Both the position numbers and the translations under genes were made by a program. Positions 8,951 through 49,987 of a DNA stretch of 64,000 bases are shown here, piece after piece. Within the stretch, counting starts at the first letter, position 1. Every line of letters begins with the position of its first letter. Under the pieces are notes generated by a model. The model did not search any database, was not told the DNA's origin, and was given only the letters and a program-made list of their open reading frames with translations. Source of the DNA: an uncultured virus (IMG/VR IMGVR_UViG_3300009169_000002) (lineage: Duplodnaviria > Heunggongvirae > Uroviricota > Caudoviricetes); IMG/VR virus record IMGVR_UViG_3300009169_000002; one strand, 5' to 3'.

Positions 8951-8986
8951 ACACCCATCGAACAACACGTGACTTGGAGAACTCAG

Positions 8987-10480
8987 ATGGCACAGCTTAA
9001 CTTCGACGCGACGACCCGCCCGGTACACATCGAGCCGACCCGCACATGGTCAGTGCATCAGGAGCGAGTGTTCAATTTCGTTGAGCACGGCGTCGGGAAC
9101 GCCATCGTCGTCGCGGTCGCCGGCAGCGGCAAGACCACCACGATCGTTGAAGCGCTGAACCGCGTCCAGGGCTCAAGCATCTTCCTCGCGTTCAACAAGT
9201 CCATCGCCGACGAGCTGAAGGCCCGTGGTGTCAACGCTCGCACGTTCCACTCGCTCACGTACGGCCCGGTCATGAAGGCTCGTGGTCAGCACACCGTCGA
9301 GTCGAACAAGCTGCGCAAGCTGTGCGACCAGTACATGACCGGCGAAGACAAGGAACTGTACGGCGCGTTCGCCACCCGTCTGGTCGGCCTTGCCCGTCAG
9401 CAGGGTGTTGGCTTCCTCGTCGCCGACGTCGAGCAGACGTGGATCGACCTGTGCGACCACCACAACATCGAGCTCGACAGCGAGTTCGCGGACATCGGTC
9501 GCGGCATCGAGCTCGCCAGCAAGCTGCTCGATGCTTCGAACGCTTCCAACATGGTTGACTTCGATGACATGCTGTACTTTGCCGTCCGTGACGGCCTGGT
9601 GCTTCCGAAGTACGACTTCATCTTCGTGGACGAAGCGCAGGACACCAATGCAATTCAGCGCGCTATCCTGCGCAAGCTGATGAACGCTGGCACCCGCATC
9701 ATCGCGGTCGGCGACCCGGCGCAGGCCATCTACGGCTTCCGCGGTGCGGACAGCGACTCGCTCGACCTGATTGCAACCGAGTTCAACTGCACGCGCCTGC
9801 CCCTGTCGATCAGCTACCGCTGTCCGCAGGCTGTGGTCAACTTCGCGCGCCAGTGGGTCTCGCACATCGAACCCGCTGCGACCGCCCCGGAGGGTTCGGT
9901 TGAAATGCTCGGAACCAAGTGGGACTCGAGTGTGTTCCAGGCGAACGACCTCGTTGTCTGCCGCACGACCGCCCCGGTCATCACGCTGGCGTACAGCCTG
10001 CTGAAGGCTCGCGTGCCGGTGCGCGTGATGGGTCGCGAAATTGGTCAGGGCCTCAAGAACCTGATCAACAAGCAGAACGCCCACACGATCGACGCACTGG
10101 TCGAAAAGCTGGAAGTGTACCGCACGCGCGAAGTCGAAAAAGCGACCGCCAAAATGGAAGACGCGAAGGCCGAAGCAATCAACGACAAGGTTGACGCGGT
10201 GCTGTGCCTCATCGACGGCTTGGACGAGGGCGACCGCAGCATCAACTCCCTGATGTCGGTTATCGACACCCTGTTTGCCGACGGTGTGAACAAGACGGTG
10301 CTCGCGACCATCCACAAGGCGAAGGGCTTGGAAGCCGACCGCGTGTTCTGGCTCAACAGCAGCGCTTGCCCCGCCAAGTGGGCACGTCAGGATTGGCAGA
10401 AGCAGCAGGAACTGAACCTGTGCTACGTCGCCACCACCCGCGCCAAGTCGGCGCTCATTCTGATCGAGGCAGGTAAGTGA
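8987..10480 (+). CDS. superfamily I (UvrD/Rep-like) helicase
   Basis: AVAGSGKT, VDEAQD, VGDPAQAIYGFRGA, TIHKAKGLE, YVATTRAK. Confidence 0.95.
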   Translation: MAQLNFDATTRPVHIEPTRTWSVHQERVFNFVEHGVGNAIVVAVAGSGKTTTIVEALNRVQGSSIFLAFNKSIADELKARGVNARTFHSLTYGPVMKARGQHTVESNKLRKLCDQYMTGEDKELYGAFATRLVGLARQQGVGFLVADVEQTWIDLCDHHNIELDSEFADIGRGIELASKLLDASNASNMVDFDDMLYFAVRDGLVLPKYDFIFVDEAQDTNAIQRAILRKLMNAGTRIIAVGDPAQAIYGFRGADSDSLDLIATEFNCTRLPLSISYRCPQAVVNFARQWVSHIEPAATAPEGSVEMLGTKWDSSVFQANDLVVCRTTAPVITLAYSLLKARVPVRVMGREIGQGLKNLINKQNAHTIDALVEKLEVYRTREVEKATAKMEDAKAEAINDKVDAVLCLIDGLDEGDRSINSLMSVIDTLFADGVNKTVLATIHKAKGLEADRVFWLNSSACPAKWARQDWQKQQELNLCYVATTRAKSALILIEAGK

Positions 10481-36725: not shown

Positions 36726-38744
36726 TTACCCTTCCGTGTAGCCAATCTCCCGGAGGATTTTTGTGGCTTCTGCGATATACCAGTCGTAATCCACATCGTC
36801 AGGAAGTTGGGCAGGCAGTTGCATGAGCGGCTTCGCTCCGTCGCTGCGTGGCACCTTGTTCCCGCTGCTGGCGTAAACCATCTCGCCCTCGTTGTCGGTG
36901 CTGTAATACCAACGAATTGAGGCGCCGAGGTATACGCCGTTCTTGACTGCTCCGCCCTTCACCTTGCGCACGCTCACGAACTTGCGGACGTCGGTGCAAG
37001 CGCGAATGGTGTCCGTCACGGGGATGTTCTTAGTTAGCAGCATCTCCACCGCGTCGATGCAGACTGTGGACTTCGGATTCATATGCAAGCGAAAGATTGC
37101 TTGCTTTGGGTCGTTCCATGGATTGTTGTACGCACCCTTGGACTTCACGCCGACCTTGCCGTCCTTGTCCGGCACCTTGACCGCGATGTAGTTATTCACG
37201 TCACGCGAATAATATGCAGCGTACTCGGTTTCCTCTGTCTGGAACCCCGTGTCGCGTTCCCATTGGTGGATGACCCGTTCCATGCTGTCGCGCTGCGCAC
37301 GCTCGCATTTGATGACCACACCGTCCGTATTCGCCGACACGACCTGCACACCGCTGAGCTCCAGGCGCTCGATAAGCATCAGCAGCGCGAGTTGCCCGGT
37401 GACGGTAACCTGTACTAGCAGGTCCGGGGAGTACAGGATGCTGTACTTGCTTCCGAGCTTGCCGAACGAACCGTTCACCACGATCTTCAACGTGTCTGCC
37501 ACCACGCGCATGCCTGCGGACTTAGCAGCAACACGACGGTTCACGATGTTGCTGTACACGCGCAAGAACTGCGGCCCGAGGTGGTGCGGGTACAGTTGCT
37601 GATTCAAAATGATTTGAGGGTAGTATGACGTCACGTCGCGGTCGACAATGCAATGCGTTGTCCCTGCAACGTGCGCGATTGTGGTCTCGGAACTGTGCAG
37701 TCCACCGATGCCCATGCGGTACACGTTCCCACCGATGCGCAGGTGCAGCGCACCGACCTCCGGGGGCATGCCTACCGACCCGTGATGCTCTACGACGAAC
37801 CAGGCGTTCCGCACGACCTCGAGCGCCCACTGCATCAACGGGGACTCGTACTTCAAAAACGAAGGCACCTTGTAGCGGTACGAGGTGCCGGGCTCGATGA
37901 CAGGCTTGCCCGGGCGGCTGCCGTCCAGCCGGTGGAGCTCGTTCGAAATAACCGCTTCCGCGATTTGTGCATCCGACCTCGAGCGAAGGTCGATGTCGTA
38001 CTCGCGCCCCAAGCTCTCACGGAGTTCAACCTGTTCGGTAAGCGACTCGAGGAGGAACCCTGTCTGCATGAGGTCGTTGACGTTGTACCATCGCACGATC
38101 GCCATCTGGTCGGGCGACAGCGTTGCCTCATGGTGAAAGGGCAAGTCCTGCATGCGAGGCGTGTGCAACCGTCCACCGTAAATCTTCAAGCTCGCGGTGA
38201 GCGGTGCTACTTCAATGAGGTCGATGTGGTCAATGTTTTTGAGTGCGCGCACCTTGTTCTGCTTCAGCACGTCGGTCGCACGCCACTCCTCTTGGATGAT
38301 GCGGTTGGTGGCAGTCTTGATCTGTTCGGTGTTCTTGCCGGCAAGCGCAAGCGCTGCCATAGGCAGGTCGTATCCGTAGCTGTTGAAGCCAACGAGGGTG
38401 AAGCTGCGCATTATCCACTCGAGCTTCGCGCGCTCCGCTAGCTCTTGCCCGGAGGACATTTCAAAGTAGACGATCGCGCCGGTGGTGTACGACGCGAAGC
38501 TGATGAGGAAGTAATTCCAATATGACTCCACATCGAACAGCAGCTTGTCCCGGCGCAGGCGTGCTTCCGCGAGCTCGGGGTCGCTCATCACATGCACGTT
38601 GAAGCGCAGCGCGTCTTCCAAGCCGGGCAGGTAGTCCGAGCGTAACCACACGGGTTCCGGTGGCGTGCGCTTGGGTGCAGCCTCCTTGACCGCTTTGACG
38701 ATTGGTTCGTCGCGCCACCACAAGCCTAGAGCGTCTGCTCTCAC
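36726..38744 (-). CDS. family-B DNA polymerase with exonuclease domain
   Basis: FDVE, GFNSYGYD; DVTSYYP, KIVVNGSFGK, SANTDG. Confidence 0.92.
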   Translation of the reverse strand: MRADALGLWWRDEPIVKAVKEAAPKRTPPEPVWLRSDYLPGLEDALRFNVHVMSDPELAEARLRRDKLLFDVESYWNYFLISFASYTTGAIVYFEMSSGQELAERAKLEWIMRSFTLVGFNSYGYDLPMAALALAGKNTEQIKTATNRIIQEEWRATDVLKQNKVRALKNIDHIDLIEVAPLTASLKIYGGRLHTPRMQDLPFHHEATLSPDQMAIVRWYNVNDLMQTGFLLESLTEQVELRESLGREYDIDLRSRSDAQIAEAVISNELHRLDGSRPGKPVIEPGTSYRYKVPSFLKYESPLMQWALEVVRNAWFVVEHHGSVGMPPEVGALHLRIGGNVYRMGIGGLHSSETTIAHVAGTTHCIVDRDVTSYYPQIILNQQLYPHHLGPQFLRVYSNIVNRRVAAKSAGMRVVADTLKIVVNGSFGKLGSKYSILYSPDLLVQVTVTGQLALLMLIERLELSGVQVVSANTDGVVIKCERAQRDSMERVIHQWERDTGFQTEETEYAAYYSRDVNNYIAVKVPDKDGKVGVKSKGAYNNPWNDPKQAIFRLHMNPKSTVCIDAVEMLLTKNIPVTDTIRACTDVRKFVSVRKVKGGAVKNGVYLGASIRWYYSTDNEGEMVYASSGNKVPRSDGAKPLMQLPAQLPDDVDYDWYIAEATKILREIGYTEG

Positions 38745-39724
38745 ATCCGCATTCCTACAAGCGCACCACGCAAGCGCTCCCCGTAGAACACGCTTGGGGC
38801 AGGGTACGTGCTGAAGTCGATGTGCGTTGCGACGTTGCGCAGTAGCATGAGCATTTCGATATTATAGATGCCTTCACACTCGAGGCCTGGTATCTCGAAG
38901 CGTGCGCCTTCATCCTCTTTTTCGCCGGGTGCAGTGCGTAGCGTACCACTTCCAATAAACACGCGCCCTGCCTTGTCTACGAACCGCTTCAGCTTTTCCA
39001 GCCCGTCGAATATGCGCTTGTCGATCGCGGTAGCGTTGTCGCTGTTGGCAAACAGCTTGCCGATGTCCGGCCACTCCAGACCGAGAAGCTGGCTGCGAAT
39101 CCAGCGCTTGTCGGTGTAGTGGAACGTCACCGAGTTTTCGGTGACTTGTGCATGCGTCGGAGGCTCGTTGATGCGCAGCATCTCCGCAACCGCTGCGCGA
39201 GGGATGTTAATCTCGACTGGCATGGTTGCTTCGGTCCAGTATTCGACCGCGACAACGTTGTTCGTTGCGAACACGCTTTGACCGCGCATCAGCACACCGT
39301 TGCACCACTGGCGCGAAGCGTCGTCGCCGATGAACGGCTGCACCACTTTCAGCGCACGGAGCACAGTCTCCCCGTCGAAGTCCACACGCTCACCCTCGGG
39401 TTGTACGTGCGGGGTTTCCTCGGCAATGCAGTCGACAAACGCTTTGAACTGACCGCAAGCAATGCGCAAGCGACCTGCTGGCGTCATTGCGAGTTGGATG
39501 GGGTAGTCGTGCCCGTTCTCGTCGGTGTCCGTGCATTGCGCGATCGCGTTGACCAGTGCGGCGGCCTTGGGTTTGCAGTCAATGTTGAAAGCAATCGGCG
39601 CGCACAGGGCGAGCGAACCGTTGTACGCTCGCACAGCACCGTCCTCGATAACGAAGTGCGTCATTGCAGGCATGAAGTCTTTCTTGGCGACTGCACCCTG
39701 TACGAACCGCAATTCCTTCAGCAT
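38741..39724 (-). CDS. beta-clamp-like processivity factor
   Basis: Next to polymerase; ends PSVFYGERLRGALVGMR. Confidence 0.75.
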   Translation of the reverse strand: MLKELRFVQGAVAKKDFMPAMTHFVIEDGAVRAYNGSLALCAPIAFNIDCKPKAAALVNAIAQCTDTDENGHDYPIQLAMTPAGRLRIACGQFKAFVDCIAEETPHVQPEGERVDFDGETVLRALKVVQPFIGDDASRQWCNGVLMRGQSVFATNNVVAVEYWTEATMPVEINIPRAAVAEMLRINEPPTHAQVTENSVTFHYTDKRWIRSQLLGLEWPDIGKLFANSDNATAIDKRIFDGLEKLKRFVDKAGRVFIGSGTLRTAPGEKEDEGARFEIPGLECEGIYNIEMLMLLRNVATHIDFSTYPAPSVFYGERLRGALVGMRM

Positions 39725-40659
39725 TAGAAAAGCTCCTGCACGCGCGCACGAAAGACTTCGCTGTGCGATGCGTTGATCATTGTGTTTATCACGCCGAATG
39801 CCCACAGGTTGTAAGCTGCCCGGGCCTCGTAGACAGTGCTCAGCCGTTCATACGTGAAGCCTTGCTTCTCAAGCATGCGGAACAGGTATTCAGTCTCGAG
39901 CGGCGTCAGTGTGGTTATGTGCTGTCCGGCGTCGTGCCTGCTTGGGCTTGAGCTCGACACCTTGATGGGTCCGTGCTCTGGTGTCATGACGCTACCGAAC
40001 GCAGCAGCTTGAATCCACGACGACGAGTCGCACGAATACCACGGGTAAGCTTCCATGAGCGGCACGGACGTCATACCGAACCCGTGTACCTTGACGCGCG
40101 CACGACCGCTGCCGTCCGTTAGATACTTCTCCCATATACGGTCGAGCCACACTTCCAGCTGAGCAGCGCTTGTGCCGACCATGCCACCGAGTGTGATGTA
40201 GTCGTAGTTCGCGACGTAGTATTCGAGCGCAGCTTCGGGTTCACCCTTGTGGAAGCAAGGCAGAGGGCGCACGCCACGCTCCTCCATCTCGAGTTGGTTG
40301 CGGTACGTTCCCTCCGCGGACGCTGCGTTGCCACCGATGCTGTCCAGCACCGACGCCATAAGCGCACCGTCCTCAACGCGCAGGATGTCCATGTTGCGCT
40401 TGATATACTCGCAGTAATCATACACGGTGAGCTTGACGCCCAACGTCCACGCAGAGAACGCGCCGGAGTCCAGAAAGATTTGCGCCTGCTCGCGGCGCAT
40501 GTCGTCAACGTACTTCTGCTTCCCGACGTAGTGCCATGATTCAAGGAGGTGCGGCAACTCGTGGACGATGTTTTTCTCGTGGTCGTTCAGCTTCTCGTAA
40601 CGGCTACCCTGCCCTCGCATGTAACCGTTCGAGTAAACCGCAGCGGTGTAGATGTGCAT
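39724..40659 (-). CDS. dpdA: DpdA-like (TGT-fold) 7-deazaguanine DNA transglycosylase
   Basis: FLDSGAFS, PCFH.GE, LGGMV, VHGFG, SCDSSSW; follows folE-queD-queC-queE. Confidence 0.8.
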   Translation of the reverse strand: MHIYTAAVYSNGYMRGQGSRYEKLNDHEKNIVHELPHLLESWHYVGKQKYVDDMRREQAQIFLDSGAFSAWTLGVKLTVYDYCEYIKRNMDILRVEDGALMASVLDSIGGNAASAEGTYRNQLEMEERGVRPLPCFHKGEPEAALEYYVANYDYITLGGMVGTSAAQLEVWLDRIWEKYLTDGSGRARVKVHGFGMTSVPLMEAYPWYSCDSSSWIQAAAFGSVMTPEHGPIKVSSSSPSRHDAGQHITTLTPLETEYLFRMLEKQGFTYERLSTVYEARAAYNLWAFGVINTMINASHSEVFRARVQELF

Positions 40660-40681
40660 CAGCGGCCTCCCTGCTGCTAGT

Positions 40682-41578
40682 TTACACCAAGCGCAGGAAC
40701 TCCGCACGAGCACTTGCGTCCGTCTTAATGACGCCGCGGACCGCTGTGGTTATCGTGTGGTGCCCCTGTTGGCACACGCCACGCGACTCCATGCACAGGT
40801 GACGCGCCTTCATGATGACACCGACACCGAGCGGGTTCAGGTGCTCATGCAGCGCGTCTGCGATCTGGTCCGTCATGCGCTCCTGCACTTGCAAGCGACG
40901 TGCGAACACGTCCGCAAGGCGCGAGAGCTTGCTGAGCCCGACAATCTTACCGTTCGGGATGTAGCTGATGGTGACCGTGCCGAAAATGGGTGCGAGGTGG
41001 TGCTCGCAGTGCGAGTAGACCGGGATGTCCTTCACGGTGATCATCTGGTCGTGCTTCTCCGCACCGTCCTCGAATACCTTGAGGATGGTAGCAGGGTCGA
41101 CGCTGTACCCGCTGCACCAATGCTTCCAGGCTTTCGCCACTCGCGTCGGTGTTTCGTGCAAGCCACCGCGCGTCGGATCTTCGCCGACAAACTGGAGGAG
41201 CCTGACCACATTGTCCTCGAAGGAACTGAACTCGTTGCCCTCCCACGGGAACACGATCCAACGCTTGTGGAACTGCCCGGGCTTGCGCTTGTCGAGCAGA
41301 GCGTGGAAGGGTACGTGCGGGTATTCCTTGGTCCACTTCCGTTCGGTGGAGCCGCTGTCAATCAAGTCATCGATGATGACTTGCGCTTGCGCGGGATCGT
41401 CCACCATTTGCAGTTCGCAGTATTGCCCAACCGCAAGCGCTGCGGAGATGCCACCGCGCGGCACACCGAAAGCACGGAGTGAGGTGTAACCAGACTCATC
41501 CATCTGGTCCACGAGCTTGTGAGCAAGCGCAAATGCAAGCTCGCTCAGCGTCTGCTGAGTAATGTGTAACTTCGACAC
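40682..41578 (-). CDS. folE: type I phosphoribosyltransferase fused to GTP cyclohydrolase I
   Basis: N-terminal GVPRGG, VIIDDLIDSGST, WIVFPWE; C-terminal ETPTRV, SHCEHHL, GLSKLSR, RLQVQERMT, HLCMESRG. Confidence 0.92.
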   Translation of the reverse strand: MSKLHITQQTLSELAFALAHKLVDQMDESGYTSLRAFGVPRGGISAALAVGQYCELQMVDDPAQAQVIIDDLIDSGSTERKWTKEYPHVPFHALLDKRKPGQFHKRWIVFPWEGNEFSSFEDNVVRLLQFVGEDPTRGGLHETPTRVAKAWKHWCSGYSVDPATILKVFEDGAEKHDQMITVKDIPVYSHCEHHLAPIFGTVTISYIPNGKIVGLSKLSRLADVFARRLQVQERMTDQIADALHEHLNPLGVGVIMKARHLCMESRGVCQQGHHTITTAVRGVIKTDASARAEFLRLV

Positions 41579-41581
41579 GGG

Positions 41582-42016
41582 TCACCTCGAGTACGATGCG
41601 GAGCACTTGCGCGTCTCTTCGATCACGCAAGAAATAAGACGGATGCCTGTACCTTGGAGTTGACCCGGGCCAACGACGTTGACCAGATACTCCGCCATGT
41701 TTTCGGCAGTGGGGTTGAACGGTACGCCGACAACACCCGCTGCGTCAATTTTCATGAGCCCGTGGAGCATAGGGTCATGCATCCAGATGAGCATCTTGTG
41801 GTCCCACTCGTGCTCGACCCACATGCAGAGCAGTTCCTTGATCGCAGTGAAATCGATAACGCGACCGATGTTGTCGAGCGCGTTACTGCCCGGGACCGCT
41901 TCGCATACGAAGTGGATGCGGTAGTTATGTCCGTGCAGGTGAGCACACTTGCTCTCGTGACCGTGGACACGGTGACCGCAGCTGATGTCGTGATACCGTT
42001 GTGCGCGGTGAGCCAT
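41582..42016 (-). CDS. queD: 6-carboxytetrahydropterin synthase
   Basis: CGHR..KCAHLHGHNY; IDF; DH; NPTAEN; EET. Confidence 0.93.
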   Translation of the reverse strand: MAHRAQRYHDISCGHRVHGHESKCAHLHGHNYRIHFVCEAVPGSNALDNIGRVIDFTAIKELLCMWVEHEWDHKMLIWMHDPMLHGLMKIDAAGVVGVPFNPTAENMAEYLVNVVGPGQLQGTGIRLISCVIEETRKCSASYSR

Positions 42017-42768
42017 TACACGGCGCTCCGGACTTTGTCGTAATTCTTGGTCTTGGGCAGGCCCATGAGCCCTTCACTCACCGCACGTATAACAAGCGGG
42101 TCTGGCTCGCCAGCATCCAAGAAGCCTTGCGCGCGGAGCACGTTTGCGTGATTCTTGTCGGTCGGCGGATACTTGCCGTCATAGCTCGTGTGGCTGTACG
42201 CCAGCGCCTCCCAACAGCCCGGAAGGGTTTTGGCCAGCTTCACCGTGTCCGCCTTGCTCTTGTACATGAGCGGGGCGCGGAGGTGCAGCTCGTAGTTCCC
42301 GAGCGACAGGGTGAATGCTTCCTCTATCGCACGCCGGTATTCCTCGGTGCAATCCGGATAATTCGCATTGTCTTCCTGACAGATACCTGTTACGAGGTCG
42401 TGGCATTCAAGCGCGACCGCACGGTTGGCAGCAATGGTGAAGAACAACGTATTGCGCATCGGCACGAACGTGAGCTCGACACGGTTGCCGATAACCTTGT
42501 CCATCTGCTGGAACGTGTCGTATCGCTCGAGGTCGTTGCTGCTCGTCAGCGGGGACGTGCTGCGCAGGCAGTCCGGGACACGAACAACCTCGTGAGTCAG
42601 CACGCCTGCCATCGCAGCGACTTTACGCGCGGCGTCCAACTCTAGCACATGACGCTGACCATAGTCAAACGTAATGGCGTGCAGGTTGGGAGTCAGGTTG
42701 TGCTTAGCCCAGAACAAGCACGTTGTCGAGTCCTGTCCGCCTGACAGAACCACTAGAGCTTTTTTCAT
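42016..42768 (-). CDS. queC: 7-cyano-7-deazaguanine synthase lacking C-terminal Zn cysteines
   Basis: SGGQDSTTC, FDYGQRH..EL, FVPMRN, YPDC, PLMYKSK. Confidence 0.92.
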   Translation of the reverse strand: MKKALVVLSGGQDSTTCLFWAKHNLTPNLHAITFDYGQRHVLELDAARKVAAMAGVLTHEVVRVPDCLRSTSPLTSSNDLERYDTFQQMDKVIGNRVELTFVPMRNTLFFTIAANRAVALECHDLVTGICQEDNANYPDCTEEYRRAIEEAFTLSLGNYELHLRAPLMYKSKADTVKLAKTLPGCWEALAYSHTSYDGKYPPTDKNHANVLRAQGFLDAGEPDPLVIRAVSEGLMGLPKTKNYDKVRSAV

Positions 42769-43490
42769 TACAGCACCCCGAGAAGCTTGTGAAGTTGGAT
42801 TTGAAGAATGTATCCGTGCTCCATACACGAATCCATGCATGCGCGCAAGTGCCTTGCATTGTCTTCCACGTTCTGCTCGTCCATCGGTTGCAGGTACACG
42901 GGACGACGAAAAGCAACGGGCGGACGCGCTACACGAGGCGCCGCACTGTGGTCAAGAGCCAGCACGGGCAACCCGTCGCGCGGGTCTACGCTGTCCGCGC
43001 TCATGACGTACTTGTAACAGCACGCGGCGTCTATGGTCGCGGGGTGGACTGCCCCGGTCTTGGGGCTACATACCACAAACGCACCCCGACGGCTCGAAGT
43101 ATTCGTGTGGATGTACTGCATCGCGTTGATGGGCGGGGGAAGCGTGCCGTTCGTCTCAATCTGGACATAGTACGCTTCAGCGCACAGAGCACCGATTAGC
43201 GCGCCGATGTCCTGCCGGAAGGGTTCGCCCCCGGTTATGACCACAAGTCCCGGTACACGGTTCGACGCGAGCTTTACGAGGTTGACAACGTGCTCCACTG
43301 TGCAGTCGGTTCGACCGGACGTGTAGTCGGTGTCACAGGCCGGGCATTGCAGGTTGCACCCGGCAAGACGGATAAATACAGCGGGGGTTCCGCAGAACGG
43401 GCCTTCGCCCTGAATGGTGTCAAATACTGAGTAGACGGAGAGGTGCGATTGGTGTACACGCTTCTCCGGTGCTTGCTGATTCAGCTGCAT
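42768..43490 (-). CDS. queE: 7-carboxy-7-deazaguanine synthase (radical SAM)
   Basis: TIQGEG, GCNLQCPACDT, TGGEP, IETNG, SPK, QLHK. Confidence 0.95.
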   Translation of the reverse strand: MQLNQQAPEKRVHQSHLSVYSVFDTIQGEGPFCGTPAVFIRLAGCNLQCPACDTDYTSGRTDCTVEHVVNLVKLASNRVPGLVVITGGEPFRQDIGALIGALCAEAYYVQIETNGTLPPPINAMQYIHTNTSSRRGAFVVCSPKTGAVHPATIDAACCYKYVMSADSVDPRDGLPVLALDHSAAPRVARPPVAFRRPVYLQPMDEQNVEDNARHLRACMDSCMEHGYILQIQLHKLLGVL

Positions 43491-43567: not shown

Positions 43568-44002
43568 TTACGCTGCGCTCGCGGTTGCCGGCTTCTCCGA
43601 ACGGCCCGTGACGCCGTTGAACTTCCGCCACTTGGCGTACTGCGTCCGCACGGTCGCTTCCGCCATGCCCGGGGCGCGCTTGATCGCGTCACCGATGACG
43701 GCAGGGGCGCCCGTCTCGCGGCTCAGGGCATCGAAGATGTCCCAGGCGTTGCCGGTCGTGGTGCCAGCCTTCGGGCGCGTCACGCCGTTCTGGGACGGCT
43801 GCTTCGCGCTTTCCTTCGCAGCTTCCTTGGCGGCCTTCGCGTCAGCCTTGGCCTGGACCTTCGCGTCGGCCTTCGCCTTGCGCTCCGCGTCCTTGGCTTC
43901 CTTCGCGGCAGCCTTCTCGGCAGCCTTCGCAGCCGCAGCCGCAGCCTTCGCGGCAGCTTTCTCTTCCGCCGTCGGTTCGGCGGCCTTGGTCTCTTCGGTC
44001 AT
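43568..44002 (-). CDS. Ala/Lys-rich putative DNA-binding protein (paralog 2)
   Basis: AK-rich N-terminus; QNGVTRPK.G..WDIFD..TVRTQYAKWRKFNG. Confidence 0.8.
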   Translation of the reverse strand: MTEETKAAEPTAEEKAAAKAAAAAAKAAEKAAAKEAKDAERKAKADAKVQAKADAKAAKEAAKESAKQPSQNGVTRPKAGTTTGNAWDIFDALSRETGAPAVIGDAIKRAPGMAEATVRTQYAKWRKFNGVTGRSEKPATASAA

Positions 44003-44092
44003 TTCGTCTCTCCTCGGTTAAAAAATCTGGATCACTAACCCATCATTCGGGCTCTGGAGCATACTAGCCTGTCCTCTGCGTGTCCGCAATCC

Positions 44093-44824
44093 CTAGGACA
44101 AACTATTTGCCTTGCGCCACGCTGCACCCTGCACGCTCACCGTGTTGGGGTTCCATCCGTGCTGTACCGCGAGCTCTTTAATCCGGGCTCGGGACGGTGC
44201 GGCACCGTTGTTGATTGTTCGCTCCGCGTCGAGGGTTGCCCAGATTTGCTGGCATACCCCACTTTTCGGACGTGCTGCTGTCGCTGCCCTGCGCGGTGCG
44301 TGCGCTGCGCTGCGCTTGGGTGCGGCTTCGGTAGCGGCTGCGGCGGCTGCGTGCTGTTGCCCACGCTGTAGCGAGCGCGCAGTGTGCTTCTGCACCGTTG
44401 CCGCAACCTCGGCAGCAGTGGGGGCAGGTAGCGGGTCGCTGAACAGCGTCACCTCCTGCCACTTGGGAACGGACGACCCGGCAACGTACGAGTATCCAGG
44501 CTTCCCGTCGGCGCTCTTGCGCTCGAGCCACTCCGCTTGTGCTTCCGCTTCAGCGGGGTCCGCAGCGCTGACCGGGAACCGTTCAGTGAGGTCCGCCAGC
44601 ACCATGCGCAGCGAGTGGCTGATTGCGGGGACGTGGTCCGCGTGCGTGGCGTGCTTGTACAGCAGCGCGAGCTCTTGGTCCGTGAAGTCCTTGAACAGCC
44701 CTGGATCATCCGTCAGACCGAGCGTGGTCTGCTTGTGCGCGATGAAGTCCAAGTTCGCAACACACCGATAGTCGGCATGCTTGTGAAGGAACTGCATCTT
44801 GTCCATGTCGATTGAAATGTACAT
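44093..44824 (-). CDS. protein with the same C-terminal domain (paralog 3)
   Basis: RPKSGVCQQIWATLD..APS..WNPNTVSVQ..WRK. Confidence 0.75.
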   Translation of the reverse strand: MYISIDMDKMQFLHKHADYRCVANLDFIAHKQTTLGLTDDPGLFKDFTDQELALLYKHATHADHVPAISHSLRMVLADLTERFPVSAADPAEAEAQAEWLERKSADGKPGYSYVAGSSVPKWQEVTLFSDPLPAPTAAEVAATVQKHTARSLQRGQQHAAAAAATEAAPKRSAAHAPRRAATAARPKSGVCQQIWATLDAERTINNGAAPSRARIKELAVQHGWNPNTVSVQGAAWRKANSLS

Positions 44825-44895
44825 GGCGGAACTTTAGCCCATGGTTCGTTTAGAAGCAAGAGGGAGGGGAGGGTATTTCTACCCTCCCCGGCAGG

Positions 44896-45378
44896 TCACT
44901 CCGCACCTTCCTCGTCGGCTTCCGGGGCGGCGACGACCACACCGTTGAACTGCTTCCAGCGCTGATACTGCGTGTAAGCCGTGTTCCGCTGCCAGCTGTT
45001 GGCGCGCATGAGGTCGCGGACCACTTCGAACGTCGGGACCGACTTGCTGCTGACCCGGACCGCATCGAGCGCGTCCCAGATTTCGCGGCAGATCGAACCG
45101 AGCGACGGCTTGGTGACGCCGTTCTGCTTGGGGCGACCCTTTTCGATCTTGAGCGACTTCTGCACCACCACTTCGCCGGCCGTCTTGGCGCGGATGCTGT
45201 GGGTCGGCTTCGGCTGCGGGGCCGGTGCGGGCTCCGACTTGACTGCGGGGGTCTGCACCACTTCGAGGGCGGCCAGCGCAGCGCGCATGCCGTCGTTGTT
45301 GAGGTTGCCGTACTTGACGCCAGCGGCCTTGCAGGCAGCGCGGAGTTCGACCTTACCCATTTCGTTGAAGTTCGTCAT
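44896..45378 (-). CDS. HEH/Rho-N-like domain plus the same C-terminal domain (paralog 4)
   Basis: EMGKVELRAACKAAGVKYGNL; QNGVTKP..ICREIWDALD..NTAYTQYQRWKQFNG; promoter TTGACG-N17-TAGTAT. Confidence 0.75.
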   Translation of the reverse strand: MTNFNEMGKVELRAACKAAGVKYGNLNNDGMRAALAALEVVQTPAVKSEPAPAPQPKPTHSIRAKTAGEVVVQKSLKIEKGRPKQNGVTKPSLGSICREIWDALDAVRVSSKSVPTFEVVRDLMRANSWQRNTAYTQYQRWKQFNGVVVAAPEADEEGAE

Positions 45379-45527
45379 GTTCCTAATCTCCTGTTTCTGC
45401 GTTGGTGGACCGCAATGCGCTGTCCATGTGTGAATACTAGACGCCTCCCGATCCTGCGTCAACACCTTTTTCAACTATTTTAGGCGGATTGAGCTAAGTG
45501 GCTGATTTTATTCAGATTATAGTTGGT

Positions 45528-47294
45528 TCAGAAGGGGATATCGTCGTCGTAAAAGTTCCCTTCCGTGGGTGTTTTGGCGCCCGGACGGGGTGCTCGCACC
45601 TCAATTGTCGGGGGTTCCATGCTGTCGGAAGCTTCCTGCACCCCAAAAGCGCTCCCATCAAAGCACTGACCGAGGATTTCTGGGTATTTCTTATTGACCC
45701 AGACCCTCAAATGTGTTGGGGCTTTGAGCATTCCTGATAACTCGATGCCAGCGTTGGTCGACAGCGGAGGCAAGCTTTCACTTCGCTCACGCCACCAGAT
45801 GCGCGCCTTGCGACCTGCATACCCGCTGTGCTCGAAGCAAACGAATTCATTGAAGTGTTGCAGACCGCAATAGTACGTCACGCGCATGGACGGAGGTGCG
45901 CCGAGCTTGGTGTGGAGGCTGAAGGTAATGTGGTCAACCTTGAAGACGTCGACCTGCGGCATCTCTCCGGTGATTAGTTCTTCGCTGCTCGCACCTTGCT
46001 TCAGCTTCGTGCTAATGGGGAACTCGTAACCACAGCCTGCGCAGATGCGAGCGCTCGCGTGATTGTACGTGCCGCAGCAGTCACAAATCTTAATGGGCGC
46101 ATCGCCCGTCTTTTCGCCGCGTCGCTTGGGGATGACGGGGTCGTTGATTGGTCCGAGCCTGCGAGTGTTCCCCGCGTAGTCGAGCACCATGCAATTCCGC
46201 TTGCCGCCTAGGCGGATTGCTTCCATGCGCTCGTCATAGTCGGAGATGTTGAAGCCTGGTGCATACAGCGGACGTGTACCGCGCCCGAGCATCTGCACCC
46301 ACAGCGGGGTCGACGTAGTGGGACGCAGCATGAGGATGAGGTCGATGCCCGGGAAGTCGATGCCAGTGGTCAGGATGTTATTGCTGACCGCGCATTGGAA
46401 GCGACCGTTCTTCCAGTCCTGAATCGCGCGATCGCGTCCGTCCATTTTATTGTGGATAGCGATAGCGCTGACACCGAGCGAGTTCAAGATATCTGCGGTG
46501 TGCATCGCGTGCTCGACGCCTGCACAGAAGCCAAGCCAGTGGTGTCGCTCCCCTGCTGAGGCTTCAATTGCTTCCCTGCATGCGCGCTCCGTTAGCTCGT
46601 CGCGGTCAACTGCGTTCTGCAATTCAGCAGGAATGAAGTCACCGCCGCGGATGTGTACACCGTCAACGTCCAGGATTGTTTGCGTGCGCCTGGGGATAAG
46701 CGGACACAGGTAACCTTCATGAATGAGGCGGTTGAACGCTTCCATGTGTGTAATGTCGAAGCAAAAGTCCGTGAACAGCCCACCCTCCGTGAGCTTGCCG
46801 AGCCCCATGCGCCACGGGGTTGCAGTGAACCCTATTACCTTGAGGTGTGGGTTCACCGAACGCAGGTCGTCTAGGAACGTGCGGTACATGGTGTCATCGC
46901 TTGGGCTGACGAGGTGTGCTTCATCGATAAGCACAAGGTCCACATGCCCGAACTGCGGTGCGTACTTCGCCACCGACCCGATGCCTGCGAAGATGATAGG
47001 ATTCACCGTGTCGCGCTGCCGGAGTCCCGCGCTGTTCACGCCAGCGGGTGCGTGCGGCCACAGGTGTATGAGCTTCGCGTAGTTCTGCTGAATAAGTTCC
47101 TTGACGTGCGTGAGGCACAGGATTTTCTGTCGCGGGTATTGCTTGAATACCGTCTCTAGGAACAGCGCAATGACAACAGACTTGCCCGTACCAGTGGGCA
47201 TCGCGATAAGAGGGTTGCCCGTCTTACCGGATGCGAAGTAGCTGAATACGGATTCGCTTGCTTCAACTTGGTATTGGTGCGGGACTAGACGCAT
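45528..47294 (-). CDS. superfamily II helicase with C-terminal Zn finger (RadD-like)
   Basis: PTGTGKS, IDEAH, TATP, QMLGRG.R, CDCC..CAGC. Confidence 0.92.
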   Translation of the reverse strand: MRLVPHQYQVEASESVFSYFASGKTGNPLIAMPTGTGKSVVIALFLETVFKQYPRQKILCLTHVKELIQQNYAKLIHLWPHAPAGVNSAGLRQRDTVNPIIFAGIGSVAKYAPQFGHVDLVLIDEAHLVSPSDDTMYRTFLDDLRSVNPHLKVIGFTATPWRMGLGKLTEGGLFTDFCFDITHMEAFNRLIHEGYLCPLIPRRTQTILDVDGVHIRGGDFIPAELQNAVDRDELTERACREAIEASAGERHHWLGFCAGVEHAMHTADILNSLGVSAIAIHNKMDGRDRAIQDWKNGRFQCAVSNNILTTGIDFPGIDLILMLRPTTSTPLWVQMLGRGTRPLYAPGFNISDYDERMEAIRLGGKRNCMVLDYAGNTRRLGPINDPVIPKRRGEKTGDAPIKICDCCGTYNHASARICAGCGYEFPISTKLKQGASSEELITGEMPQVDVFKVDHITFSLHTKLGAPPSMRVTYYCGLQHFNEFVCFEHSGYAGRKARIWWRERSESLPPLSTNAGIELSGMLKAPTHLRVWVNKKYPEILGQCFDGSAFGVQEASDSMEPPTIEVRAPRPGAKTPTEGNFYDDDIPF

Positions 47295-48340: not shown

Positions 48341-49138
48341 TTACGAGCGCGGCTGCTGCCACGGAGGAACTGCGCCCTGCGCCGGGTGTGCCGGCTGCGG
48401 AGGCGTCGGTGCGGCAGCGGGTGCGGCACCCTGCTGCGGGGGCTGCGCCTGCCAGGCTTGACCACCGTTCGGCGGCGTCCACGGACCGGGAGCGGGTCCA
48501 GGGCCTGCCTCGGGTGCTGCGGGTGCTGCGGCCCACGGCTGAGCGGCTGCCGGAGGTGCCCAAGCACCCTGTGGCGGCTGCTGCGGTGCTGCCTGCGGTG
48601 CAGGAGGAGCACCCCACTGCTGAGCAGGGGCAACCGGCGGCGGCGCACCCCAACCCGCAGGCGCTGCGGCAGGGGGAGGCGGATACGCGCCCGGCTGCGG
48701 GTACGCAGCGGGAGCAGCGGCGACCGCGGAACTGCCAACGACCTCGTTGACGTTCTTGTACGAGGTGACCTCATTGTTGTCCTCGTACTCGCCGTCACCC
48801 TTCCGCAGCTTGACCTTCAGCTGGAGCGGGATGCCGTGGAGCTGCGAGCTGTCCGCGACCTGCAACACGCCGACAGCGTGGGCAATCGCGCTGAGCTGCT
48901 TGAACCCGATCTCCTGCGCGACAGCGTTCGCGTTGCGCAGGTTGAGGCGCGTGAACAGCTTCCGTCCCATGTAGGGACCGTCGATGATGGTGAAGCGGCA
49001 GTTCAAGTAGGCGCCGTCGCCAGCCTTGGTGGGCTTCATTTCCGATTCGTCCATCACCGCCTTGTACCAACCTGCCGGCACGGGGTCGAACCCGATGTCG
49101 TGCGGGACGTTGGTTGCGTCGAAATTCAGCTGAGCCAT
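48341..49138 (-). CDS. single-stranded DNA-binding protein (DUF669-type)
   Basis: FDPVPAGWY..GRKLF.RLNL.N.N..A; Pro/Ala/Gln tail ending PPW. Confidence 0.85.
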   Translation of the reverse strand: MAQLNFDATNVPHDIGFDPVPAGWYKAVMDESEMKPTKAGDGAYLNCRFTIIDGPYMGRKLFTRLNLRNANAVAQEIGFKQLSAIAHAVGVLQVADSSQLHGIPLQLKVKLRKGDGEYEDNNEVTSYKNVNEVVGSSAVAAAPAAYPQPGAYPPPPAAAPAGWGAPPPVAPAQQWGAPPAPQAAPQQPPQGAWAPPAAAQPWAAAPAAPEAGPGPAPGPWTPPNGGQAWQAQPPQQGAAPAAAPTPPQPAHPAQGAVPPWQQPRS

Positions 49139-49150
49139 GTTGTCTCCTGT

Positions 49151-49987
49151 TTACCTTGTGAACACATCGATTCCGCTTGACTGATGCAGCACGCCTGCAA
49201 GCGTGTTCCAACCATTCGCCGGGGGCGCTGGAATCGTGTATTCCCCCGTGATGCCAAACCTGTTGCCTGCAATATAGCCCGGCGTCCGCGAGAAGCCAAG
49301 GACTCGTCCCTTGTTCTGCGAGACTGCCTTGACCATACCTTCCGCTTTGCTAACGAAGACGGGTTCGTACAGGAAGCCGACGATGTCCGCCCACTGCGTG
49401 ATGCGTTCGCGCTTGCCGTACGTTTTCTGATTCTTGGGGGAGTGCAGCAGCAAGTCCCACGAGTCGTATTCACCGGACGTCGGGTCCATTACTTTGGACG
49501 CGAATACGTGGCACGTTATCACGATGTTGATGCCTGCATACACAGCGAGCGAGTCGCACATTTGCAGGAACTGGTCGAACTCCTCGTTGGCGAGGTTGTA
49601 CGCTTTGCCGTAGCCACCGTGGGCGCTTTCCATGGTGATGACTTTCTTGCTGCCCGGACGGTACGCAGGGTCACGCCGAATTATAGCGTCGTGGATGGAG
49701 CGCTCGAGTGCAGTACCGCTGTCGAATATGATTGTGCGGTAGGCGAACTGACCGCGCTGTGCAGCCTGCGTCACCTCCGCCATGAACTGCAAGAGTTCTT
49801 CCCACGTCTGAAGCATCGGTGTCTTGGCGACGTTCACGCCACCGAACCCAACCTCGAGCGGGACAAGCAACGCGCCCGGAGCACCGGCGCACAGGGTTGT
49901 CTTGCCCATTTTTTCTTGACCTGCGACGACGATGCGGAGGCCGCTACGTGTCACGCCAGTTGAAACCGATCCGAGGATGCTGCTCAT
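49151..49987 (-). CDS. Sak4-like ATPase (AAA_24)
   Basis: GQEKMGKTT; IIFDS; GGYGKAY; WAD; AGNRFG; next to SSB. Confidence 0.85.
   Translation of the reverse strand: MSSILGSVSTGVTRSGLRIVVAGQEKMGKTTLCAGAPGALLVPLEVGFGGVNVAKTPMLQTWEELLQFMAEVTQAAQRGQFAYRTIIFDSGTALERSIHDAIIRRDPAYRPGSKKVITMESAHGGYGKAYNLANEEFDQFLQMCDSLAVYAGINIVITCHVFASKVMDPTSGEYDSWDLLLHSPKNQKTYGKRERITQWADIVGFLYEPVFVSKAEGMVKAVSQNKGRVLGFSRTPGYIAGNRFGITGEYTIPAPPANGWNTLAGVLHQSSGIDVFTR

What the first reader, a model, noticed from the sequence alone, without database searches (positions are those of the whole stretch)
8987..9013. Identical N-terminal nonapeptide MAQLNFDAT on the SF1 helicase and the SSB, with different codons
Seen: helicase ATG GCA CAG CTT AAC TTC GAC GCG ACG versus SSB (49138-49112, minus) ATG GCT CAG CTG AAT TTC GAC GCA ACC. 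All 9 residues match, with five synonymous and no non-synonymous differences, in unrelated genes 40 kb apart. Inference: a peptide under selection that docks both proteins to one partner. Q-L-x-F resembles clamp-binding motifs (QLxLF) and the phage encodes a beta-clamp-like protein (38741-39724); Sak4 is another candidate partner.
Basis: partly seen in the sequence, partly recalled or inferred. Interest (0 to 1): 0.72.

Follow-up and report, generated by a model that had tools for sequence, protein, structure and literature searches.

The report
Helicase carries its SSB's polymer arm
In a group of bacterial viruses, many copies of a DNA-unwinding enzyme begin with the same short peptide as the virus's single-stranded-DNA-binding protein, which likely lets the enzyme plug into the end of that protein's chain on DNA as if it were one more subunit.

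Summary
Confirmed: both genes start MAQLNFDAT, each behind its own GGAG, with 5 synonymous differences (chance about 1e-6 per genome). The peptide is the conserved N-terminal arm of DUF669 phage SSBs (M-A-x-L-x-F-[DN]-A-x-x-V-x-P). A matrix built from SSB arms alone finds it on 44 of 119 closest UvrD-type helicases, patchily on the tree, and on a small orphan family. All 6 near-complete contigs with an armed helicase encode a DUF669 SSB, against 7 of 31 with an armless one. A clamp motif is unlikely: Q3 survives in 14 of 47 helicase arms, and 12 of 19 near-complete arm-SSB genomes lack the phage clamp. Sak4 is weaker too: the arms stay the same beside two Sak4 types sharing little beyond Walker A. 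The SSB's closest solved fold, PrgE, polymerises through its N-tail, and a published AlphaFold3 model of a close homologue puts the arm on the next subunit. Best reading (0.6): the helicase mimics an SSB subunit and docks at a filament end. This scan noted the same principle before, with another peptide, on other DNA (e1-9774907).

The parts
8976..8979 (+). Shine-Dalgarno-like GGAG, 7 nt before the helicase ATG
   Evidence: sequence
8987..9025 (+). SSB-type arm on the helicase, residues 1-13; residues 1-9 (8987-9013) identical to the SSB; the P lies one residue earlier than in the consensus
   Evidence: score 11.7 on the SSB-only matrix; coil, pLDDT about 57 in the AlphaFold2 model
9026..9046 (+). 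Short linker, residues 14-20 (up to about 20 residues longer in relatives, often with a DQPRD-like stretch)
   Evidence: linker pattern in 25 of 47 armed and 0 of 72 armless homologues
9047..10480 (+). UvrD/Rep/PcrA-type superfamily 1 helicase core
   Evidence: PF00580 E 2.9e-23, PF13361; phrog_1967; model
49100..49138 (-). N-terminal arm of the DUF669 SSB, residues 1-13
   Evidence: PF05037 match starts at residue 5 = profile position 2; arm pattern in 119 of 120 closest homologues
48341..49138 (-). DUF669 single-stranded DNA-binding protein: OB fold (about residues 23-129) and P/Q/A-rich tail
   Evidence: Foldseek top hit PrgE 8S4T E 1e-5; about 70% identical to Nipunavirus SSBs over residues 1-132
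48827..48889 (-). Conserved SSB stretch, residues 84-104, holding S97, which covaries with arm residue L4; candidate arm-binding patch (inferred)
49144..49147 (-). Shine-Dalgarno-like GGAG, 5 nt before the SSB ATG
   Evidence: sequence
49151..49987 (-). Sak4-like annealing ATPase next to the SSB (rival partner)
   Evidence: PF13479, phrog_124
38741..39724 (-).
   Evidence: phrog_947 E 1.2e-71; co-occurrence test

Best explanation
The helicase begins with a copy of the conserved N-terminal arm of the phage's DUF669 single-stranded-DNA-binding protein, and likely uses it to dock in the arm-binding site of that protein, as if it were one more subunit. Shown: shared arm, protein-level conservation, specificity of the motif to DUF669 SSBs, co-occurrence, flexible position in front of the helicase core. 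Inferred from PrgE and a published model: the SSB polymerises head to tail on ssDNA, each arm binding the next subunit, which leaves one free site at one end of each filament. Inferred: the helicase arm fills that site and, through its linker, holds the motor at that filament end, where it unwinds onward or pushes SSB/Sak4 off during recombination-linked replication and repair. The arm is an optional enhancer, since armless helicases occur beside the same SSB.
For: (2) A matrix from 75 SSB arms alone scores 44 of 119 helicase homologues at 11.7 or more and the other 75 at 6.0 or less; six-frame scans of 6 genomes hit only the SSB plus the helicase (4 genomes), the SSB plus the orphan (1) or the SSB alone (1, variant arm missed). 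(3) At positions not used to select them, the 47 helicase arms keep P13 (42) and V/H/I11 (43), as the SSBs do (P13 114, V11 116 of 119), while positions 3, 9, 10, 12 vary. (4) Among records at least 90% complete, 6 of 6 with an armed helicase (2 with variant arms judged by eye) encode DUF669, against 7 of 31 armless (Fisher p 0.0007; 7 of 18 among helicases at least 50% identical, p 0.013); the cultured phages DoCa3, JG054 and MiCath also have both. Five whole genomes with armless helicases have no DUF669 core by a sensitive HMM search. (5) The SSB model's only solved matches at E<=0.001 are PrgE chains; in PMC11137577 (sections 9, 10 and passages) PrgE's N-tail binds the neighbouring monomer on ssDNA and removing 12 residues makes it monomeric in 300 mM NaCl. 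(6) PMC13687109 section 9: AlphaFold3 places residues 1-20 of one Gp63 on another Gp63, and EM shows oligomers on ssDNA; most listed Gp63 homologues start with this arm. (7) L4 covaries with S97 of the SSB core (L with S, I/F with T), rank 14 of 7875 pairs, 9-28 in 5 of 5 subsamples. (8) Helicase residues 1-20 are low-confidence coil outside the core.
Against: No binding was shown or modelled. The arm is dispensable: 72 of 119 homologues lack it, among them helicases of 7 near-complete genomes that have the SSB. In the published Gp63s pull-down (PMC13687109 Supplementary Data 7 rows) the 482-aa UvrD of phage 47, armless by length and peptide numbering, is still enriched 7-fold; unrelated phage proteins reach 9-13-fold, so this neither supports nor needs the arm. 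The covariation is one pair at Meff about 101, from sequences partly selected on the arm; no window-level enrichment on residues 84-104 was seen, and it cannot tell a contact within one chain from one between chains. The published model puts the arm on residues 131-143, not at S97, with ipTM 0.51-0.55. PrgE homology is by fold only (12% identity, TM 0.56; the SSB profile found nothing in PDB). Co-occurrence counts are not phylogenetically independent, and DUF669 travels with Sak4, the SF2 helicase and the exonuclease, so they do not single out the SSB. The window's own arm is a weak member (score 11.7). One of five DUF669-free genomes gave a matrix hit of 15.2 (not examined).
Confidence: 0.6

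Rival explanations
1. Both arms bind Sak4: the SSB arm recruits the annealase and the helicase arm lets the motor engage or strip Sak4 filaments.
For: Sak4-like genes sit beside the SSB in the armed genomes inspected (window, G001, G015, G027, G028, DoCa3); Gp64 (Sak4-like) is enriched 16.5-fold in the Gp63s pull-down, whose bait keeps the arm.
Against: The window's Sak4 and those of DoCa3/G027 align only over 33-40 residues (Walker A region for DoCa3), yet the window's and DoCa3's arms are identical over residues 1-8 on both proteins. [quoted passage not shown]
Confidence: 0.13
2. [quoted passage not shown]
For: These genes are present in all 6 genomes read in full that have the SSB; the SF2 helicase is the most enriched of the 10 proteins compared in the pull-down (27.8-fold); the SSB model weakly matches E. 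coli RadD (E 0.02).
Against: Profile comparison of the SSB with the SF2 C-terminal domain is not significant (probability 0.3%); the arm covaries with the SSB's own core; self-association by the N-tail has a solved precedent.
Confidence: 0.13
3. The arm is a beta-clamp-binding motif.
For: Q-L-x-F reads like the clamp motif named in the finding; the clamp-like gene is present in the armed genomes read in full.
Against: Q3 in 14 of 47 helicase arms and weight 0.36 in SSBs; conservation extends to A8, V11 and P13; phage clamp found in 7 of 19 near-complete arm-SSB genomes (12 of 33 records in all). The host clamp was not tested.
Confidence: 0.04
4. No docking role: the 5' end of the SSB gene was recombined onto the helicase gene and is kept for expression or stability, is a targeting tag, or is a neutral relic.
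For: The arm is patchy (16 changes on a 150-row tree, at least 10 forced), dispensable, and some copies are degenerate.
Against: Synonymous changes exceed non-synonymous in codons 1-8 in most pairs (for example 5 vs 1, 2 vs 0; pairs with G001 do not); upstream regions share only GGAG; no excess likeness to the genome's own SSB, so no recent copying; the hydrophobic and proline positions are the ones kept; the arm is retained in an unrelated 85-aa family whose body falls to 54% identity.
Confidence: 0.1

Closest known systems
Healer Gp63-Gp64 (DUF669 SSB plus Sak4-like ATPase) of Pseudomonas phage 47 (PMC13687109)
   Same: Same SSB family and gene neighbourhood; homologues start with the same arm; arm predicted to contact the next SSB; oligomers on ssDNA.
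   Different: In the sections and supplements read, no copy of the arm on a helicase is mentioned; that phage's UvrD is 482 aa and armless by length.
PrgE of plasmid pCF10 (PDB 8S4T; PMC11137577)
   Same: Closest solved fold; N-terminal tail binds the neighbouring monomer in a beads-on-a-string ssDNA filament and drives oligomerisation.
   Different: 12% identity; its tail contacts are described as polar, ours is a hydrophobic pattern; no partner carrying a copy of the tail is described in the parts read.
T4 gp32 N-terminal domain (PMC12893549, abstract only)
   Same: The N-terminal segment binds the core of the adjacent ssDNA-bound subunit and gives cooperativity.
   Different: Basic, unrelated sequence; partners bind the C-terminal domain rather than carrying a copy of the N-terminal segment.
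Sak4-SSB of HK620 and acidic SSB C-tail hubs (PMC5928155, passages)
   Same: DUF669 SSB as organiser of a recombination module.
   Different: There the SSB offers a tail that the partner binds; here the partner would offer the SSB's own arm. The window's SSB has no acidic tail.
BRCA2 BRC repeats mimicking the RAD51 self-association motif (recalled; no call)
   Same: A partner copies the polymerisation peptide of a filament-forming protein to occupy its subunit interface.
   Different: Eukaryotic recombinase filament, unrelated sequence, a mediator rather than a motor.

Membership tests
DUF669 / Gp63-type phage SSB (48341-49138) | PF05037 domain above cut-off | tested here: met
   57.3 bits vs 21
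DUF669 / Gp63-type phage SSB (48341-49138) | OB fold with five strands and a helix; next to a Sak4-like gene | tested here: met
   phrog_124 neighbour
DUF669 / Gp63-type phage SSB (48341-49138) | ssDNA binding and oligomerisation | not testable with these tools
   shown for Gp63 in PMC13687109 section 9; K38, R64, I77 and R112 are present here
UvrD/Rep/PcrA superfamily 1 helicase (8987-10480) | UvrD N- and C-terminal helicase domains, Walker A, DEAQD | tested here: met
UvrD/Rep/PcrA superfamily 1 helicase (8987-10480) | ATP-driven 3'-5' unwinding | not testable with these tools
   polarity recalled from the family
Beta-clamp-binding motif | Conserved Gln before the hydrophobic residues (recalled consensus, also named in the finding) | tested here: not met
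   Q3 in 14 of 47 helicase arms; weight 0.36 in SSBs
Beta-clamp-binding motif | Co-occurrence with the phage clamp | tested here: not met
   7 of 19 near-complete arm-SSB genomes; host clamp not tested
SSB polymerisation arm (PrgE/gp32 type) | N-terminal segment outside the OB core that contacts an SSB core | tested here: inconclusive
   outside the strands; one covarying pair L4-S97
SSB polymerisation arm (PrgE/gp32 type) | Contact is between chains and deletion abolishes oligomers | not testable with these tools
   published prediction only; complex prediction unavailable
Subunit-mimic docking motif on a partner | Partner keeps the same interface positions and occurs only with the cognate polymer | tested here: met
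   6 of 6 vs 7 of 31, not phylogenetically independent
Subunit-mimic docking motif on a partner | Partner peptide binds the polymer's site and competes with the native arm | not tested
   no model or experiment

The most novel reading that the evidence does not exclude
The DUF669 arm is a portable plug: phages graft their SSB's polymerisation peptide onto other proteins (a UvrD motor, many times gained, swapped or lost; an unrelated 85-aa family in a phage without UvrD) to address them to one polar end of SSB filaments. This would be a recruitment logic opposite to the acidic-tail hub, and a 13-residue tag for steering any enzyme to phage-SSB-coated DNA.
Probability: 0.4. Interest if true: 0.8.

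Novelty: new variant of a known kind. Interest (0 to 1): 0.62.

Why it matters
Known SSB-partner contacts mostly run through an acidic C-terminal tail; these phage SSBs lack one, so how they recruit enzymes is open. A helicase that carries the SSB's own arm offers a concrete answer, predicts which end of the filament the motor sits on, and comes with natural armed and armless pairs among cultured Nipunaviruses (JG054 armed, read; JG012 and PaMx25 match only from residue 18). It also points to the uncharacterised self-association site of DUF669 SSBs, a family just shown to repair CRISPR cuts and to aid phage genome editing.

Tried and rejected
Complex prediction (SSB 16-140 with helicase 1-36) was not available, so docking is unmodelled. 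The search of protein representatives and the VIA structural alignments did not run (queues full). No solved relative by sequence. Recent gene conversion from the own SSB: rejected. One clade of armed helicases: rejected on a 46-row subset chosen to hold armed/armless neighbours (p-AU 6e-8; its shuffle test is meaningless for that reason); the full tree is FastTree only, as the slower search did not finish. Armless calls for database proteins could hide missed starts; for DNA loci the frame was read back to the upstream stop or about 70 residues. Homology of the SF2 C-terminal domain to the SSB: not shown. Covariation by windows did not single out a patch. The metagenome scan gave 1 armed helicase among 59 readable N-termini of 80 loci, most under 50% identity: the arm is confined to the close clade. 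One search took 45 of the 80 loci, chosen for contig length and closeness, plus 5 others; G058 (no UvrD) was dropped before the Fisher count; P0120 (a truncated copy of the window's protein) was dropped from the 120 homologues. The Atlas and PHROGs gave no family for the orphan. Earlier-finding look-ups by sequence gave nothing relevant. Expression data were not sought. Literature searches (open-access library only) listed no paper on this shared arm; most hits were seen as listings only. Sheet 4 of Supplementary Data 7 and the structure source files of PMC13687109 could not be seen and may bear on the pull-down and interface statements.

Full report
Observation. The helicase gene at 8987-10480 (+) and the gene at 49138-48341 (-) both begin MAQLNFDAT, with 5 nucleotide differences in 27, all synonymous. 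Both ATGs follow a GGAG. The next in-frame starts of the helicase lie at residues 23 and 28, within the first predicted helix of the core. A match of eight residues after Met is expected about 9e-7 times among 90 genes.

What the genes are. The first is a UvrD-type superfamily 1 helicase, the second a DUF669 protein annotated as SSB, next to a Sak4-like ATPase; a clamp-like gene is also present. The nearest cultured relatives are Nipunavirus (Queuovirinae) phages such as DoCa3 and JG054. The Pfam DUF669 model begins inside the shared peptide (residue 5 = profile position 2), and 119 of the 120 closest SSBs carry it. So the peptide is not a private tag of this phage but the family's N-terminal arm, about 13 residues: M-A-x-L-x-F-[DN]-A-x-x-V-x-P.

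The arm on helicases. Of the 119 closest helicase homologues, 47 have the arm by pattern; at positions not used for selection they keep P13 (42 of 47) and V/H/I11 (43 of 47), while Q3 is kept in 14. A scoring matrix built from 75 SSB arms alone separates 44 helicases (11.7 to 30.3) from the other 75 (6.0 or less), and in six whole genomes finds only the SSB and the helicase, or the SSB and one orphan, missing one variant arm. Most armless relatives start directly before the conserved TWS; 8 have another extension. Armed and armless forms are interleaved on a tree of the core alone (16 changes, at least 10 forced; one clade rejected). A shared linker pattern in 25 of 47 armed and 0 of 72 armless proteins suggests a 5' module of common origin that was lost or swapped repeatedly (inference). 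Across 12 genomes the helicase arm is no closer to its own SSB than to others, so the perfect 9/9 here is consensus meeting consensus, not recent copying. AlphaFold2 leaves helicase residues 1-20 as low-confidence coil.

Specificity and company. Two back-translated motif scans of viral contigs returned DUF669 SSBs in 117 of 120 and 118 of 120 loci, plus two such helicases and one 85-aa orphan. The orphan's four relatives all begin with the arm while the body falls to 54% identity; its phage has the SSB but no UvrD. Among records at least 90% complete, 6 of 6 with an armed helicase encode DUF669, against 7 of 31 armless (not independent points; three fragmentary records with armed helicases gave no SSB match). 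Five genomes read in full that lack the SSB module have armless helicases.

Which partner. Clamp: Q3 is not conserved and the phage clamp is missing from 12 of 19 near-complete genomes with an arm-bearing SSB. Sak4: the same arms accompany two Sak4 types that align only around Walker A, and HK620's DUF669 SSB works on Sak4 through its C-terminal six residues (PMC5928155, passages); not excluded. The SSB itself: its model matches only PrgE among solved structures at E<=0.001, and PrgE's N-tail binds the next monomer on ssDNA and drives oligomerisation (PMC11137577, passages and sections 9-10). For Gp63, a Nipunavirus-type member of this family, an AlphaFold3 model puts residues 1-20 on the next subunit and EM shows oligomers on ssDNA (PMC13687109; abstract, passages, sections 9-11, Supplementary Data 4 and rows of Data 7 read). 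My covariation analysis of 272 SSBs recovers strand pairs and ranks L4-S97 14th of 7875, stable to subsampling, but gives no broader patch and cannot tell cis from trans; it also points to a different surface than the published model. T4 gp32 uses the same architecture with an unrelated peptide (PMC12893549, abstract).

Mechanism. Most likely (0.6) the helicase is an SSB-subunit mimic: its arm fills the vacant site at one end of a head-to-tail SSB filament and tethers the motor there, for onward unwinding or for clearing SSB and Sak4 in recombination-linked replication and repair. The sharing, selection, specificity and co-occurrence are shown; trans binding of the SSB arm is inferred from a structural relative and a published prediction; docking of the helicase arm and its consequence are inferred. 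[quoted passage not shown]

Novelty. Nine searches of the open-access library listed no report of the arm on a helicase. The parts are known families and interface mimicry is a known principle (BRC repeats, recalled), so this is a new variant of a known kind. An unchecked note of this scan (e1-9774907) reached the same idea for a different peptide in another phage; I had stated my reading before seeing it, did not test it, and do not count it as support. Interest 0.62; 0.8 if the portable-plug reading holds.

Noticed in passing
window 45531-45548 (-), end of the SF2 helicase 45528-47294: The RadD-like SF2 helicase ends in a bacterial-SSB-like acidic tail (DDDIPF); DD[IV]PF ends it in 6 of 6 genomes read, while the phage SSB itself ends in a P/Q-rich tail with PPW. 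A second SSB-type peptide on a second helicase, possibly recruiting host SSB partners.
   Followed up: partly
L089:1801-2058 (+) = G058:7971-8228; P0241-P0244: 85-aa orphan family with a conserved SSB-type arm before a predicted-helical body, in a phage with DUF669 SSB but no UvrD; candidate filament cap or regulator.
   Followed up: partly
L244:9038-9586 (+) (G058): A 182-aa ORF near the orphan has an arm-like stretch (F-D-A-x-x-I-x-P) close to its start and a C-terminal helix that by eye resembles the orphan's; below the matrix threshold, no relatives in viral contigs.
   Followed up: partly
P0045, P0077, P0087, P0092, P0097, P0104; L012, L176, L192: Some armless helicases carry a different Ala/Val/Gln-rich N-terminal extension; the three loci among them lie in genomes without DUF669. 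Possibly another docking peptide.
   Followed up: no
L160, L161, L171, L164 (helicase starts): Variant arms that have lost the F or A but keep the spacing and mostly the P, in genomes with a canonical SSB arm; natural test of tolerance or decay.
   Followed up: partly
window 49151-49987 vs L001:1123-1848: Two very different Sak4 types occupy the same slot beside nearly the same SSB in related phages: gene replacement within the module.
   Followed up: partly
window 39724-43490 (-): Cluster that by translation looks like 7-deazaguanine DNA-modification genes (QueE, QueC, QueD, FolE-like and a DpdA-like gene), as expected for Queuovirinae; names recalled, not scanned except 39727-40668, which had no Pfam hit.
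   Followed up: no
window 43568-45474 (-): Three small Ala/Lys-rich ORFs end in similar stretches (for example W-x-x-F/N-N-G-V and 'T..Q...W' patterns), possibly paralogous DNA-binding proteins.
   Followed up: no
G007 (L388), + strand ORF starting near 9635: One arm-matrix hit (15.2) in a genome without DUF669; chance or another carrier.
   Followed up: no
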